64,000 nucleotides of DNA from Octopus vulgaris (GCA_951406725.2 OX597839.1:33728001-33792000); one strand, 5' to 3'. Counted from the stretch's first letter, positions 257-63,260 are shown. Notes: a model not told the origin generated them from the letters alone. A program made the numbers and translations.

Positions 257-1222
257 ATGAATGCTGAGAAACTATATTATATTTCTAAGAATCAATTTCA
301 AAAACTCCGAGTCGATTTTGTAAAATATTTGGACGATATAGATTCGTTTTTAGACGAAGCTTTAGACAATGGTTTGTTAACTCAGAGCAATATAGAGGGA
401 ATCATGTCTGAAAAAGATTCTAACAGCCAGAAACGACGGTTACACAATATCTTATATAAGAAACTACCAGACGGGTCCCGTGAATTTGTGTCAGCTTTAA
501 AAAAGTCAGAACATGAGGAAATAATCACTCTATTAGACGAACAGTCAGTCTACCCGATGAAATTCAAAACACATGGTCGAGTTGTATTAATAAATAATGT
601 GAAATTTGACGATGAAGAGAAGTATCCAGAAAGGCTCGGAAGCGAAAAAGATGTGGAGGGTATCACGAAACTTTTCACTGCTTTCAATTTCGATGTTCAA
701 CTTTATTCTAATAAAACGGCCGAGGAAATGGAAGATTCGATTCTAAAAGAAGCTGCAGAAAGTACAGCCAATGAGGATTGTTTCGTTATGTTCTTGATGT
801 CACACGGTGCTTTAGGGAATATTGTCGGAGTTGATGGTGAGAAATTACCTTATTCCACTATTAACAAAATTCTAAAGAAGAGCACTCCCTTGAAAAACAA
901 ACCAAAACTCATTTATGTAAATACTTGTGAAATTAATCCTACCGAGAAAGATATCAAGAAATATTTCAACGTTCCAGATCTCTATGTTACGTTTGCCACT
1001 GTTCCAGAAAGCCTAGCTTTTCCAACTGATGAAAGTGGTTCTGTTTTCATAAAATGTTTAATCAGTGTTTATGAAACGAACAAAGATAGATGTGACATCT
1101 CTTCATTATCACTTGATATAAATTCACAAGTTTCGAAGGAAGGCAATGAGATTTCCATGGATCAGGTTTCAAGTTCTTTCTCTACGTTGAAGAAAAATGT
1201 GATACTTCGAGCCAAAGACTAA
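257..1222 (+). CDS. CARD-caspase paralog, class A (copy A1), intact, 321 aa
   Basis: N-terminal ~95 aa CARD-like pattern (RVDF..LD..L..GLLT..I.S....QKRRLH..L.KK). Caspase motifs [26 protein letters not shown] (catalytic His), [11 protein letters not shown] (catalytic Cys at the QACxG position), [18 protein letters not shown]. Uninterrupted ORF. Confidence 0.9.
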
Positions 1223-1303
1223 CCAGATTCCGTCCCAATTCTCTCTTCTCCTTCTCTCATTAAAATATAAAGAAATTGAACAACAATAGTATGTACGTTA
1301 AAT

Positions 1304-1758
1304 CTTAAAGGCGGTGCTCCAGCATAGCCACAGTCAAATGACTGAAACATGTGAAAAAGTAATATCTCTCTCTCTATCTGTATATATATATATATATATA
1401 TATATATATATATATATATATATATATATATATATATATATATATATATATATATATATATATATATATATATATATATATATATATATATATATATATA
1501 TATATATATATATATATAGACAAAAGAATATATATATATATTGTATATATATAGGAATATATATAATATAGTATATATATATATATATATATATATATAG
1601 AGAAATAAACACAGAAAGAATAGAAATAAAAAATGCGTCGTAACTAACGAATCAACATATATATATATATATATATACACAGATAGAGAGAGAGAGATAT
1701 TACTTTTTTACGTGTTTCAGTTATTTGACTGTGGCTATGCTGGAGCACCGCCTTTAAG
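1304..1758. repeat. Inverted pair of SINE 3'-tail fragments flanking (TA)n
   Basis: cttaaaggcggtgctccagcatagccacagtcaaatgactgaaac... starts at 1304 and its reverse complement ends at 1758. The arms match the tail of the full SINEs at 58632 and 61142. Confidence 0.85.
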
Positions 1759-2382
1759 TTATATATATATATTATATATCTAGAAATTAGTGGTTAACTC
1801 TCTAATAATTTATGTATAAATTTGTATTTTCTCCGTAGATTTCTGTGCTCAGCCACTCGGTGTTAAATTAATGATATTATTAAATTAATATTAATTTTTC
1901 ACCCTCATTTATAAATATTATATATATAGATATATTATATACATATATATACACATACATATGTACTTATATATATATATACACACTCACACGCACATAT
2001 ATATATATAGATATATTATATACATATATATACACATACATATGTACTTATATATATATACACACACTCACACGCACATATATATATATATACAGAGAGA
2101 GAGAGAGAGAGAGAGATATTACTTTTTTTTACGTGTTTCAGTCAGTTGACTGTGGCTATGCTGGAGCTCCGCCTTTAAGATATATATATATATTATATAT
2201 ATAGATATATTATATACATATATATACACAAACATATGTACACATAGACACACACACACATATATATATAGACACACACACACACACACACACACACACA
2301 CACACACACACACACACACACACACACATATATATATATATATATATATATACATACACACACACACACATATATATATATA

Positions 2383-2790
2383 GTAATGTGGGGAAAACTC
2401 CGATCTTGTGAATTTTCCGAAGTCCTCTCCCCACCCTCCCGTTGCTTTGCACGCATTTTTTTTTGTTCATATTCGCATCCTTTTCATTGTTTTACACCCA
2501 TTCCAGTATTTTTTCTTTTCTTTTCGCTTTGCATTTCCTAAACATTAACCATAAGTCTGAATAAAATTTGTTATAAACCCGTTCAAAGAAGGATTTTATT
2601 CCAATATTATATTGCTCGCCGACTGACCCTTTAATCACGTCTGACCAACGTCTGTCCGACTGTCCCTTTAATCACGTCTGGCCAACGTCTGGCCAACGTC
2701 TGTCCGACTGTCCCATTAATCACGTCTGGCCAACGAGACAGACGAGTTGTTTGTTATTAGATAAGGACAATAACCATCTATAAACATTAC
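2383..2790. mobile_element. Repeated element with internal 37-bp minisatellite, possibly solo-LTR-like; other copies at 8989-9533, 15444-16048, 31301-32114, 50789-51601
   Basis: The same flanks occur in five copies. Ends gtaatgt...acattac form a 7-bp inverted terminus. The LTR assignment is tentative. Confidence 0.4.
2619..2735. repeat. 37-bp minisatellite (ccgactgwcccwttaatcacgtctggccaacgtctgt), ~3 units
   Basis: Direct tandem units without spacers. Confidence 0.9.
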
Positions 2791-2959
2791 GCCGCACTTT
2801 CGTACTTAACGCAAAATGAGATATTTATATTTTTACTTATTATTTACTATTCTAGAAAGGAATTAATGATGGCATATTATAATTCATAACGCAAACACAC
2901 GTGCGTGCACACACACACACACACACACACACACACATACTTATATACCTGTGTCACTA

Positions 2960-60844: not shown

Positions 60845-61600
60845 AGCACTCCGTCGGTTACGACGACGAGGGTTCCGGTTGATCCGAATCAATGGAACAG
60901 CCTGCTCGTGAAATTAACGTGCAAGTGGCTGAGCACTCCACAGACACGTGTACCCTTAACGTAGTTCTCGGGGATATTCAGCGTGACATAGAGAGTGACC
61001 TTTGAAATACAGGTACAACAGAAACAGGAAGTAAGAGTGAGAGAAAGTTGTGGTGAAAGAGTACAGCAGGGATCACCACCATCCCTGCCGGAGCCTCGTG
61101 GAGCTTTTAGGTGTTTTCTATCAATAAACACTATCAATAAAGGCGCAGGAGTGGCTGTGTGGTAAGTAGCTTGCTAACCAACCACATGGTTCCGGGTTCA
61201 GTCCCACTGCGTGGCATCTTGGGCAAGTGTCTTCTGCTATAGCCCCGGGCCGACCAATGCCTTGTGAGTGGATTTGGTAGACGGAAACTGAAAGAAGCCT
61301 GTCGTATATATGTATATATATATGTGTGTGTTTGTATGTGTTTGTGTTTGTCCCCCTAGCATTGCCTGACAACCGATGCTGGTGTGTTTACGTCCCCGTT
61401 ACTTAGCGGTTCGGCAAAAGAGACCGATAGAATAAGTACTGGGCTTACAAAGAATAAGTCCCGGGATCGATTTGCTCGACTAAAGGCGGTGCTCCAGCAT
61501 GGCCGCAGTCAAATGACTGAAACAAGTAAAAGAGTAAACACTCACAACGCCCGGTCTGGGAATCGAACCCTCGTCGTCGTAACCGACGGAGTACTAACAT
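60845..61600 (-). mobile_element. Third SINE family (Nin/Deu-like core) with a rearranged 5' end, hosting a nested OR-like SINE
   Basis: Minus-strand B box ggttcgattccc and core ...gccacttgcacgttaa; 28-bp perfect inverted ends. Confidence 0.6.
61142..61534 (+). mobile_element. Full-length CORE-type (OR-like) SINE, nested
   Basis: Near-identical to the 58632 copy; TSD taaacact at 61125 and 61535. Confidence 0.85.
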
Positions 61601-61603
61601 TCC

Positions 61604-62065
61604 ATTAGAATAAAGTTGAACATCGAAATTGAAAGCCTTGAAAAGTTCCCTGATACCTTCCACATCCTTTTCGCTTCCGAGCCTTTCATTGTATTTACTC
61701 CCAACGGGAAATTTCACATTATTTATTAATATAACACGACCATGAAGTTTGAATTTCATCGGGTAGACTGACGGATCGTCTAATAGCTCGAGAATTTTAT
61801 TATGGTTTGACTTTTTCAAAGCCGACACAAATTTACGGGACTCATCTGGTAGTTTCTTACCTAGGATTTCGTGTAACCGTCGTTTCTGATCGTTAGAATC
61901 TCTTTCAGACATTATGCTCTCTTTATGGCTATATGTCAGCAAACCATTGGATAAAGCTGCATCTAAAAATGATTTGATATCGTCCATGAGTTTTACAAAA
62001 TCAACTCGGAGTTTTTGAAATTGATCCTTAGAAATATAATATACTTGGTCGTCATTCATGCTCAT
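61604..62065 (-). pseudogene. Inverted class D-like CARD-caspase truncated after codon 154; the ORF reads on into SINE sequence to 61445
   Basis: MSMNDDQVYY...[10 protein letters not shown] followed by non-caspase sequence. The upstream module is intact at ~62066-62900. Confidence 0.8.
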
Positions 62066-62906
62066 ATAAAGTTCTTAATATGAAAACAATATAAATCTCT
62101 AAAAATATAAATTTTTACCTGGAAAAGAAAAATGCAAAACAGTCCACCCTTTCACTTCCTGGTTTACGAAGAAAAACGTTTCGGGTATTGTAGTCTGCTC
62201 AGTTCGATGACTTCATTAACTGAGCCTAGTTATTTACAAACATATATATTTCAATGGCTCTTGTTAAATTTCCTTCAACCAATCAAATTTTCTTCAAAGT
62301 TCTGGATAGTTTTCCTCTGATGACGTAAATCAGAGTTATTTTTTTCTTTTAGAAACCAATAACAAAGAAACTACAAATATTTAAAGTCATGTCATTCAAG
62401 CGATTAAATAGTTTCACCTGAATACTTTTAGAAAATGCGCATTTCACATAGTTCTAACCGATTGTGTTACACTGAGAAGATTTGATGTTCGTGGGTCAGC
62501 GAAACATGCAACATAAAAATGAAGAGAAAGAAGGAAGCTGTTTCTTACAGATTTTATTTTCCTGTTAATTCGATGTTAGTATCAGAACACAAAATGCTGT
62601 GGCAGTCGGCCGTTTTACAATGCTAAGGGCGAAAATAACAAAGACAAAACGAGAGCACGTTTGGTAATAACTGCGTCTGTTGCGGATGTTAGGAAGAAGT
62701 GATTTGCTAAAAATACTGTGAGTGCGTCGTCTGAAAGCGAAAACGATTGTTACCGAATATTCTGAGAGGATTCGTAGTTAGACATGTTGGATTGTTGAAT
62801 GTGGATCGGAGTAGAATGGGAAATGAATTCGCTTATCTCCATTTACCTCTATTTTACCCCGAAATGCTGAGTTAAACCAATAGAACTTATCTAAGTTTGA
62901 CGGTCG

Positions 62907-63052
62907 AACTTGGAATGTTTCAGATGAGTTGATGTCAGCCTTGAAAAAGTCATGTCATGTTGAGATATTTATTTGATCTAAAAGATCAAATATCTTAAAA
63001 TGTTTCGATTTTTTCAAGGCTGACATCAATTAATCTGAAACATTCGGAAGTT
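62907..63052. other. Fold-back hairpin (~70-bp arms, 3-nt loop at 62980-62982) derived from CARD coding sequence
   Basis: Left arm aacttggaatgtttcagatgagttgatgtcagccttgaaaaagtc...atttgatct pairs with agatcaaat...gattttttcaaggctgacatcaattaatctgaaacattcggaagtt. Confidence 0.8.
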
Positions 63053-63260
63053 TCTTGAATATATAATCATGTAACTTTCGTATTTGGTGGTCAGTTTTTC
63101 TTTCGGACATTATTCCATTTTTATATCCCTCAGTCAATAAACCATTGGATAAAGCATGATCTAAAAATGATCCGATATCGTCCACGGGTTTTACAAAATA
63201 AACTCGGGTTTGCATAAATCGTTCCATAGAAATATGATCTACTTCTTGTTCACTGCTCAC
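62955..63260 (-). pseudogene. B-type CARD-only sequence (GTG start, AAA>TAA at 63030-63032) ending in the fold-back
   Basis: SSEQEVDHISMERF...KKLPNVSD*LMSALKKSKHFKIFDLLDQINIST*. Confidence 0.75.

What the first reader, a model, noticed from the sequence alone, without database searches (positions are those of the whole stretch)
257..63260. Tandem CARD-caspase locus mixing active enzymes, c-FLIP-like pseudocaspases and truncated CARD decoys
Seen: about 15 full-length paralogs plus fragments, with an uninterrupted coding exon and a non-canonical YVNT[C/Y][Q/E] in place of QACxG. Cys-bearing ORFs (A1, B, E1, E2, F) alternate with intact Tyr-bearing ORFs (C1, C2, D1) and truncated copies whose CARDs are nearly identical to those of E and F. 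Known: vertebrates pair CASP8/10 with c-FLIP, and CASP1 with CARD16/17/18 decoys, in tandem clusters. Inference: this is a lineage-specific, rapidly turning-over enzyme/decoy module, possibly an invertebrate inflammatory-type caspase system, that arose convergently. I cannot establish whether it has been described before.
Basis: partly seen in the sequence, partly recalled or inferred. Interest (0 to 1): 0.85.

Follow-up and report, generated by a model that had tools for sequence, protein, structure and literature searches.

The report
Octopus caspase cluster with dead decoys
An octopus tandem cluster of CARD-caspase genes mixes copies that keep the catalytic cysteine with intact copies that carry tyrosine instead and a CARD-only gene, and the dead copies likely act as regulators of the live ones, a set-up already known from primates and mosquitoes, although several copies are probably assembly duplicates.

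Summary
Observation confirmed in the assembly: 15 single-exon CARD-caspase loci (5 intact Cys, 3 intact Tyr, 7 broken) plus stubs, Octopus vulgaris. The family is published: the divergent Octopus 'caspase-Y1/Y2'. The Cys-to-Tyr state is real: it is in contigs of four runs from four studies, in an O. bimaculoides protein and in a fragment on another chromosome, always with a derived ~39-aa linker insertion. The cluster is a mosaic: E and F join the Tyr lineage's promoter, CARD and p20 to Cys-bearing C-termini, with breakpoints at or just before the catalytic codon. A clean CARD-only gene lies 3 kb outside the window. Corrections: C2, D3-D5 and E2 may be assembly duplicates with long-read indels; A1 and E lack an S1 arginine; in-window truncations are not CARD-only; dN/dS among Tyr copies is not below 1; expression is not shown. 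Best reading (0.5): a convergent enzyme/pseudo-enzyme/CARD-only module, likely immune. New variant of a known kind; interest 0.45.

The parts
257..1222 (+). A1: intact CARD-caspase, 321 aa, His+Cys, short linker, S1 Arg341 position is Pro; closest to O. bimaculoides Casp.Y2 (P0009)
3500..4582 (+). B: intact, 360 aa, Cys, long linker; mosaic of an L2-type front half including the catalytic Cys and a D-type back half
6861..7825 (+). A2: copy of A1 with a 1-bp deletion at 7490 (211 aa, His but no Cys); 0 substitutions vs A1
9582..10645 (+). Y9582: broken Tyr long-linker copy (start and promoter lost, frameshift near 9860)
13282..14246 (+). A3: copy of A1 with the same 1-bp deletion (211 aa)
17022..18134 (+). 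C1: intact Tyr pseudo-caspase, 370 aa, long linker, 24-nt duplication in p20
20226..20468 (+). 3' stub: promoter-like DNA fused to an E-type p10 fragment, no start, internal stop
22914..22925 (+). AGGAAGTGAAAG, ETS-IRF composite-like motif about 90 nt before the D1 ATG; GGAAGTGAA in 19 of 24 loci of the cluster
   Evidence: consensus in PMC3214047
23009..24097 (+). D1: intact Tyr pseudo-caspase, 362 aa; Tyr codon TAT at 23684-23686; keeps Arg179, His237, Asn283 and Arg341 equivalents. A further intact Tyr gene (G69, P0028, 370 aa) lies outside the window at G000:C26:33797930-33799039 (-)
23690..23806 (+). ~39-aa linker insertion with a second NTC motif and Asp sites; predicted disordered (pLDDT<50)
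25052..25147 (+). 5' stub (about 31 codons, GTG start); like stubs at 28279, 41084, 44444, 47756
26252..27340 (+). D2: Tyr copy with nonsense A>T at 26714 (154 aa = CARD + 54 aa of p20); the nonsense allele is in DNA run X2
29484..30476 (+). E1: intact Cys, 330 aa, short linker, Arg179 position is Lys; C/D-type front half plus L2-type back half
31536..32059 (+). 37-bp minisatellite; arrays also at 2619, 9225, 15680 and 51024, in front of B, Y9582, C1, C2 and F; marks the starts of the 12.3-kb duplication
31758..44000 (+). 12.3-kb near-copy of 15680-27982 (C2, D3, D4); many single-base indels; suspected assembly duplicate or very recent duplication
33090..34202 (+). C2: intact Tyr copy, 4 substitutions vs C1
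39026..40115 (+). D3: D1 with one inserted T and no substitution (298 aa)
42280..43368 (+). D4: D2 with two single-base indels and 2 substitutions
45645..46734 (+). D5: D2 with one indel and 3 substitutions (same nonsense)
48962..49954 (+). E2: identical to E1 in the coding sequence
52575..53525 (+). F: intact Cys, 316 aa, 14-residue linker, Arg-His-Asn-Cys-Arg; C1-like to codon 213 (158 of 161 informative sites), R85-like after (58 of 58)
61445..62065 (-). T61: CARD + start of p20 running into repeat DNA (206 aa)
62964..63260 (-). T63: CARD-length remnant, ATG changed to GTG, internal stop. The intact CARD-only gene T67 (114 aa, clean deletion of the whole caspase domain, promoter and 3' flank kept, junction seen in run X18) lies just outside the window at G000:C26:33795166-33795507 (-), L036:3166-3507

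Best explanation
This is a recombining tandem cluster of single-exon octopod CARD-caspases ('caspase-Y') holding Cys-bearing copies, intact Cys-to-Tyr pseudo-caspases and one CARD-only gene, in which the dead products likely tune the enzymes by sharing their CARD-recruitment platform and by forming mixed dimers, probably in an immune response. Shown: the three gene types; that the Tyr state always sits on a long-linker back half; that recombination near the catalytic codon gave E and F the same promoter, CARD and p20 type as the Tyr genes C/D/G. Inferred: a shared promoter and CARD would co-express them and recruit them to one adaptor; a folded pseudo-domain would dimerise with the enzymes and inhibit or enhance them according to dose, as c-FLIP(L) and mosquito CASPS18 do; T67 would compete at the CARD, as CARD16-18 do. 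Untested: expression, binding, activity, direction of effect. Most in-window truncated copies are by-products of turnover or of assembly.
For: Tyr is not an assembly error: contigs spanning the codon without a change there in DNA run X2 (0 differences) and in runs X3, X4 and X11 (all differences accounted for elsewhere), four studies. Tyr plus long linker in O. bimaculoides P0017 and in a fragment on C13. Of 23 aligned sequences, Tyr occurs in 5 of 9 with the insertion and 0 of 14 without. Across species the folded parts of the Tyr pair differ at 63 of 265 residues and the linker at 23 of 49 (Fisher p=0.0015), and the folded parts diverge no more than in four Cys ortholog pairs. AlphaFold2 gives D1 a confident helical N-domain and caspase fold (mean pLDDT 83.9; Foldseek E 1e-18 to caspases). 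Breakpoints: permutation p<=0.0005 in 7 of 7 triplets tested; CARD and back-half trees disagree. T67 passes the Pfam CARD cut-off (26.7 vs 23.9) and its junction is in run X18. ETS-IRF-like motif in 19 of 24 loci; IRF domains at three places in the genome. Excess amino-acid change in the B-type CARD clade, 2 S and 34 N, p=0.02-0.002.
Against: Among intact Tyr copies C1/D1/G69 there are 8 S and 43 N changes, omega 1.5-2.1, not significantly different from 1 under two of three transition weights and never below 1: no direct sign of purifying selection. Conservation across species can come from gene conversion with Cys paralogs. Tyr copies are not one clade downstream of the codon (p-AU 4e-7), and O. 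bimaculoides also has a Cys long-linker sequence (P0034), so repeated loss is as parsimonious as one old origin. P0017's annotated C-terminus is aberrant. At least 2 Tyr loci are dead by real or likely real lesions (D2, Y9582). Several copies may not exist. O. sinensis long-linker models carry Cys.
Confidence: 0.5

Rival explanations
1. Birth-and-death debris: the Tyr and truncated copies have no function; they stay enzyme-like only because unequal crossing-over and gene conversion keep refreshing them.
For: omega not below 1 among Tyr copies; many broken copies and stubs; pervasive mosaicism; Tyr not monophyletic; C-to-Y needs one transition.
Against: Three distinct intact Tyr ORFs (C, D1, G69); Tyr in three places of the long-linker tree and never on short-linker copies; folded parts half as divergent as the linker across species; recent Cys paralogs also show omega of 1 or more (E1/F CARD 2 S and 10 N), so the test does not single out Tyr copies.
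Confidence: 0.28
2. Bait rather than partner: the Tyr proteins keep the substrate pocket (both arginines and the histidine) and would soak up pathogen caspase inhibitors or trap substrates, protecting or damping the enzymes without dimerising with them.
For: Arg179/His237/Asn283/Arg341 equivalents kept in 4 of 4 long Tyr proteins aligned; rapid amino-acid change in the family; a similar decoy idea is raised for caspase-5 (PMC11383037, passage).
Against: Kept residues may reflect recent conversion; no pathogen inhibitor is known here; does not explain the CARD-only gene.
Confidence: 0.12
3. Mostly an assembly artefact: a small cluster was multiplied by haplotype or read duplication, and the breaks are long-read errors.
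For: D3, D4, D5, A2 and A3 differ from their twins by 1-2 single-base indels and 0-3 substitutions; 22 indels against 44 substitutions outside microsatellites in the 12.3-kb pair; six contig depths in run X2 vary less per copy under a collapsed count (CV 0.16) than under the assembled count (CV 0.43; without F 0.18 vs 0.25). About even odds that C2, D3-D5 and E2 are extra.
Against: It cannot remove the core: about 12 distinct paralogs, 7 relatives in O. bimaculoides, and Tyr, the nonsense allele and the T67 junction in contigs of other runs. X2 may be another animal, and contig depth is a poor copy counter.
Confidence: 0.06
4. Not dead: the second NTC motif, 22 residues downstream in the linker insertion, supplies the nucleophile in Tyr copies.
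For: The second NTC[Q/R] is kept in both species in an otherwise fast-changing linker.
Against: In the AlphaFold2 model Tyr ends the catalytic strand and the second Cys lies in a pLDDT<50 segment; Cys copies B and R64 carry the motif too.
Confidence: 0.04

Closest known systems
Octopus caspase-Y1/Y2 (PMC10959488; PMC11463336; XP_014790087.1, XP_014784582.1)
   Same: Same family: by eye, the supplement sequences shown match P0019 and P0009, which are 68-69% identical to E1; P0009 is 87% identical to A1. An immune role is hypothesised there.
   Different: In the passages, one section and the supplement hits I saw, only two O. bimaculoides members are listed; I saw no mention of the cluster, Tyr copies, linker insertion, CARD-only gene or mosaicism. 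The Octopus pair fell outside the CARD-caspase clade in one tree.
Primate CASP1/CARD16/17/18 locus (PMC11383037)
   Same: Tandem cluster, gene conversion of CARDs, CARD-only genes, positive selection, copy-number variation.
   Different: Not shown orthologous; the genes here have one coding exon; here a full-length pseudo-caspase joins in and appears to be the donor of the enzymes' CARD.
c-FLIP(L) / caspase-8 (PMC13233873)
   Same: Full-length pseudo-caspase beside its enzyme, with Asp sites in the intersubunit linker. That c-FLIP has Tyr at the catalytic Cys position is recalled, not confirmed by a call.
   Different: CARD instead of tandem DED; histidine and pocket kept; several copies; mixed dimers untested.
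Aedes CASPS18/CASPS19 decoy pair (PMC4840389, passage citing Bryant 2010); C. elegans CSP-2/CSP-3 (recalled)
   Same: Invertebrate decoy caspase that modulates a paralog.
   Different: Effector-type, no CARD (recalled); independent origin.

Membership tests
Caspase (clan CD, Peptidase_C14) | Caspase fold | tested here: met
   Pfam E 1e-32 to 1e-36; AF2 plus Foldseek for F and D1
Caspase (clan CD, Peptidase_C14) | His-Cys dyad in A1, B, E, F | tested here: met
Caspase (clan CD, Peptidase_C14) | His-Cys dyad in C, D, G69 | tested here: not met
   His kept, Cys is Tyr
Caspase (clan CD, Peptidase_C14) | S1 pocket Arg179/Gln283/Arg341 (PMC11121540) and QACxG | tested here: not met
   Gln is Asn in 23 of 23 sequences including Argonauta; A1 has Pro for Arg341, E has Lys for Arg179; B and F keep both Arg
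Caspase (clan CD, Peptidase_C14) | Asp-specific proteolysis | not testable with these tools
   needs an enzyme assay
Octopus caspase-Y1/Y2 | Close homology to the named sequences; CARD plus caspase domain | tested here: met
Lophotrochozoan caspase-Y clade | Orthology to bivalve, gastropod and annelid caspase-Y | not tested
   no such sequences were held; in my tree the family is a long-branch clade with Argonauta and a C14 caspase, apart from the C20 CARD-caspase
c-FLIP (CFLAR) | Tandem DED prodomain | tested here: not met
   CARD, no DED hit
c-FLIP (CFLAR) | Folded caspase domain without catalytic Cys | tested here: met
   predicted model and alignment
c-FLIP (CFLAR) | Mixed dimer with the active paralog | not testable with these tools
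CARD-only proteins (CARD16/17/18 type) | CARD as sole domain in an intact gene: T67 | tested here: met
CARD-only proteins (CARD16/17/18 type) | CARD as sole domain: in-window truncations D2/D4/D5/T61/A2/A3/T63 | tested here: not met
   they carry 50-110 aa of p20 or other tail, or lack the ATG
CARD-only proteins (CARD16/17/18 type) | Inhibits caspase recruitment | not testable with these tools
   needs a cell assay
Vertebrate inflammatory caspases | Orthology; cleavage of gasdermin or IL-1; inflammasome recruitment | not tested
   PMC10959488 finds that clade restricted to vertebrates and leaves a common origin with caspase-Y as one of three scenarios

The most novel reading that the evidence does not exclude
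The cluster is a recombination switchboard centred on the catalytic codon: crossing-over there re-deals front halves (promoter, CARD, p20) onto live or dead back halves. The short-linker enzymes (10-16 residues, probably unable to mature by cleavage) depend on a cleavable long-linker Tyr pseudo-caspase as activating partner, while a CARD-only gene brakes them: a three-part, IRF-inducible death-protease rheostat invented independently in octopuses.
Probability: 0.15. Interest if true: 0.75.

Novelty: new variant of a known kind. Interest (0 to 1): 0.45.

Why it matters
If the dead copies are regulators, cephalopods evolved both vertebrate decoy designs (full-length pseudo-caspase and CARD-only protein) in one locus, independently. 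The function of caspase-Y, an open question, would become testable with natural on/off pairs that share 82-93 of 99 CARD residues. It also warns that copy counts and 'caspase-3/7/8-like' labels for octopus are unreliable here.

Tried and rejected
Expression: no RNA holder listed. Runs X3, X4, X11 and X18 are only guessed to be RNA and no silent control stretch was laid, so they show presence of alleles, not transcription. Absence of the D3/D4 indels from contigs was not used, since contigs drop rare variants. A short 5' intron (22957-23001) was rejected: its acceptor is not kept in A or B types and laid contigs run through it unspliced. The displaced-nucleophile idea got no support from the model. 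One clade of Tyr copies was rejected. Word-limited searches found close relatives only in three Octopus species and Argonauta, and no CARD-only relative except a 71-aa O. vulgaris model: not evidence of absence. The Atlas search of the CARD gave only CARD hits at 0.80, a lead. The proteome supplement of PMC11431876 could not be read; it may list these proteins. O. sinensis isoform models look like chimeras between paralogs; only P0002, P0003 and P0015 were used in trees. Earlier findings of the scan: none returned. Two look-ups of a c-FLIP structure paper and two searches for its Tyr found nothing.
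Full report
Identity and anatomy. The window is G000:C26:33728001-33792000. The top protein hit is 100% identical and named Octopus vulgaris. Six-frame ORFs and tblastn give 15 near-full-length loci with one coding exon on + (5 intact Cys: A1, B, E1, E2, F; 3 intact Tyr: C1, D1, C2; 7 broken: A2, A3, Y9582, D2, D3, D4, D5), two truncated minus-strand copies (T61, T63), five 5' stubs and two 3' stubs. With 50 kb fetched on each side, the cluster runs from about -26.6 to +86.2 kb and adds Cys copies L1, L2, R64, R73 (frameshift near its end) and R85, an intact Tyr copy G69, and a CARD-only gene T67. 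Peptidase_C14 hits 6 of 6 proteins tested; Pfam CARD passes its cut-off in 1 of 6 and is weak in 5. AlphaFold2 gives F (mean pLDDT 91.2) and D1 (83.9) a helical N-domain plus caspase fold, and Foldseek matches both to caspases at E 1e-20 and 1e-18.

How many copies are real. Stretches 15680-27982 and 31758-44000 are 98.5% alike, and 27805-33716 and 47283-53201 99.2%. The first pair has 44 substitutions and 22 indels outside microsatellites, many of one base in or beside runs. D3, D4, D5, A2 and A3 differ from their twins by 1-2 single-base indels and 0-3 substitutions; E1 and E2 are identical. I matched six contigs of DNA run X2 to copy sets: depths 87.5 (F only), 80.5 (nonsense, 3 assembled copies), 105.8 (C1/C2), 209.8, 211.3 and 240.3. 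Depth per copy varies less under a collapsed count (CV 0.16) than under the assembled count (0.43), but without F the gap shrinks to 0.18 vs 0.25. Two further X2 contigs listed were left out of that fit. X2 may be another animal and the tool warns that contig depth is no copy number, so this is a hint: about even odds that C2, D3-D5 and E2 are extra. About 12 distinct paralogs remain.

The Tyr state is real and recurrent. Contigs span the codon (23684-23686) with no change there in X2 (0 differences), X3 (1) and X4 (3); for X11 (organism B) five differences are accounted for elsewhere by count. The nonsense allele of D2 is in X2. The T67 junction (23306 to 24126 on D1 coordinates) is in X18. 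X3, X4, X11 and X18 are only guessed to be RNA, so expression is not shown. O. bimaculoides P0017 has INTYQ plus the same insertion, as has a 242-nt fragment on C13. Among 23 aligned sequences Tyr is in 5 of 9 with the insertion and 0 of 14 without; Argonauta has Cys and a short linker, so the insertion is likely derived. Against one simple origin: O. bimaculoides also has a Cys long-linker sequence (P0034), and downstream of the codon sequences group by species; one Tyr clade is rejected (p-AU 4e-7). Old Tyr with reversion by recombination and repeated Tyr gain are about equally parsimonious.

Module swapping. Max-chi tests (7 of 7 triplets, p<=0.0005): F is C1-like at 158 of 161 informative sites up to codon 213 and R85-like at 58 of 58 after, with the catalytic codon at 226; E1 switches from C/D-like to L2-like at codons 192-206; B and R64 are L2-like up to about the catalytic codon and D-like after (one triplet puts B's switch at codon 208). 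CARD and back-half trees disagree accordingly. R85 and L2 have O. bimaculoides counterparts, and the O. bimaculoides Tyr protein's CARD falls in the supported clade of A and C/D/E/F/G, unresolved within it. I infer that E and F are young chimeras that took the Tyr lineage's promoter and CARD, and that the Cys long-linker copies got their Cys with an L2-type front half.

Are the Cys copies enzymes? The S1 residues are Arg179, Gln283 and Arg341 (PMC11121540, figure legend). Gln is Asn in 23 of 23; A1 has Pro for Arg341 (Arg in its O. bimaculoides ortholog); E has Lys for Arg179; B and F keep both. Short-linker copies have 10-16 residues between the Cys and the first p10 strand, against 55 in B/C/D, whose linker holds Asp sites in both species. 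That the short copies act uncleaved is inference.

Selection. Intact Tyr copies C1/D1/G69: 8 S and 43 N, omega 1.5-2.1, excess N significant under only one of three transition weights; B-type CARDs 2 S and 34 N, p=0.02-0.002; the C/D/E/F/G CARD clade 5 S and 26 N, not significant. Distant paralog pairs give omega of about 0.4-0.6. Across species G69 vs P0017 differ at 20 of 98 (CARD), 35 of 126 (p20), 8 of 41 (p10) and 23 of 49 (linker) residues; folded parts are within the range of four Cys ortholog pairs and below the linker (p=0.0015). Gene conversion could produce this too. Function of the Tyr copies is therefore plausible, not shown.

Regulation and partners. GGAAGTGAA lies about 90 nt before the start in 19 of 24 loci (not A1-A3, Y9582, R85; a note of mine said 20, the call gives 19). 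It matches the ETS-IRF composite element GGAAGTGAAAC (PMC3214047, passage), and IRF domains lie at three places in the genome. The loci are not independent and ETS sites are common in promoters (own knowledge), so this is a lead. Among 14 other CARD proteins fetched, the family's CARD profile scores a 2xCARD protein (L074), L073 and a CARD-Death protein (L072) best; PMC11463336 proposes CRADD as caspase-Y activator.

What is known. PMC10959488 (passages and supplement hits) names Octopus caspase-Y1/Y2 as divergent CARD-caspases. PMC11463336 (passages, section 10, supplement hits) lists them with sequences that by eye match P0019 and P0009, and hypothesises an immune role. Precedents for the design: the primate CASP1/CARD16-18 locus with gene conversion (PMC11383037, passages), c-FLIP(L) (PMC13233873, passages; its Tyr is recalled) and mosquito CASPS18 (PMC4840389, passages). 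PMC9389742, PMC11431876 and PMC4199593 were seen as passages only; the second's supplement was unreadable. Searches for octopus+caspase+expansion, cephalopod+caspase+CARD, pseudocaspase+invertebrate, c-FLIP+mollusc+decoy, caspase-Y and O. sinensis+caspase-7+infection (listings only unless named above) showed no description of this cluster or its Tyr copies; subscription journals are not covered.

Verdict. A real, partly over-assembled cluster of a named but uncharacterised family, with a Cys-to-Tyr pseudo-caspase lineage, a CARD-only gene and recombination focused near the catalytic codon. It most likely works like the vertebrate and mosquito decoy modules (0.5) but is a member of neither. New variant of a known kind; interest 0.45.

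Noticed in passing
G000:C26:30.94-30.98 Mb (L063-L067): Five long single-ORF genes: a CARD followed by 1 to about 10 tandem copies of a ~174-aa domain with no Pfam hit in the 2 scanned; Atlas structure hits are receiver/flavodoxin-like but under TM 0.5. Candidate sensors or adaptors 2.7 Mb from the caspase cluster.
   Followed up: partly
L074:763-1410 (G000:C20:71.925 Mb): 216-aa ORF of two CARDs; best match to the caspase-Y CARD profile among 14 CARD proteins tested (71 bits).
   Followed up: partly
G000:C14:75.54-75.63 Mb (L072) and C24:38.85-39.06 Mb (L068-L071): Further tandem CARD clusters: 6 hits on C14 (the one fetched is CARD-Death, CRADD-like) and 11 on C24.
   Followed up: partly
G000:C5:54.15-54.52 Mb, C19:7.04-7.11 Mb, C28 (L043-L061): Other clusters of single-exon caspase-3/7-like genes; one (L054) has EASRG in place of the catalytic pentapeptide, another possible pseudo-caspase.
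   Followed up: partly
L042:4995-6035 (G000:C14:72.26 Mb): Single-exon short-linker caspase with SACRN motif, no CARD and a charged insertion in p20; groups with this family on a long branch.
   Followed up: partly
L062:802-1043 (C13) and L041:4266-4677 (C18): Dispersed fragments of the cluster on other chromosomes: catalytic strand plus linker with Tyr, and promoter plus CARD.
   Followed up: yes
window 2619, 9225, 15680, 31536, 51024: 37-bp minisatellite arrays precede five loci and mark the starts of the 12.3-kb duplication.
   Followed up: partly
window 53600-58600: Stretch whose ORFs recur at about +80.5 to +85 kb beside R85, in line with F deriving its 3' part from R85 (ORFs).
   Followed up: no
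P0001, P0002, P0006, P0007, P0014, P0030, P0031: Public gene models of this cluster appear to splice across paralogs (for example a model with three CARD starts); the labels caspase-3/7/8-like are misleading.
   Followed up: partly
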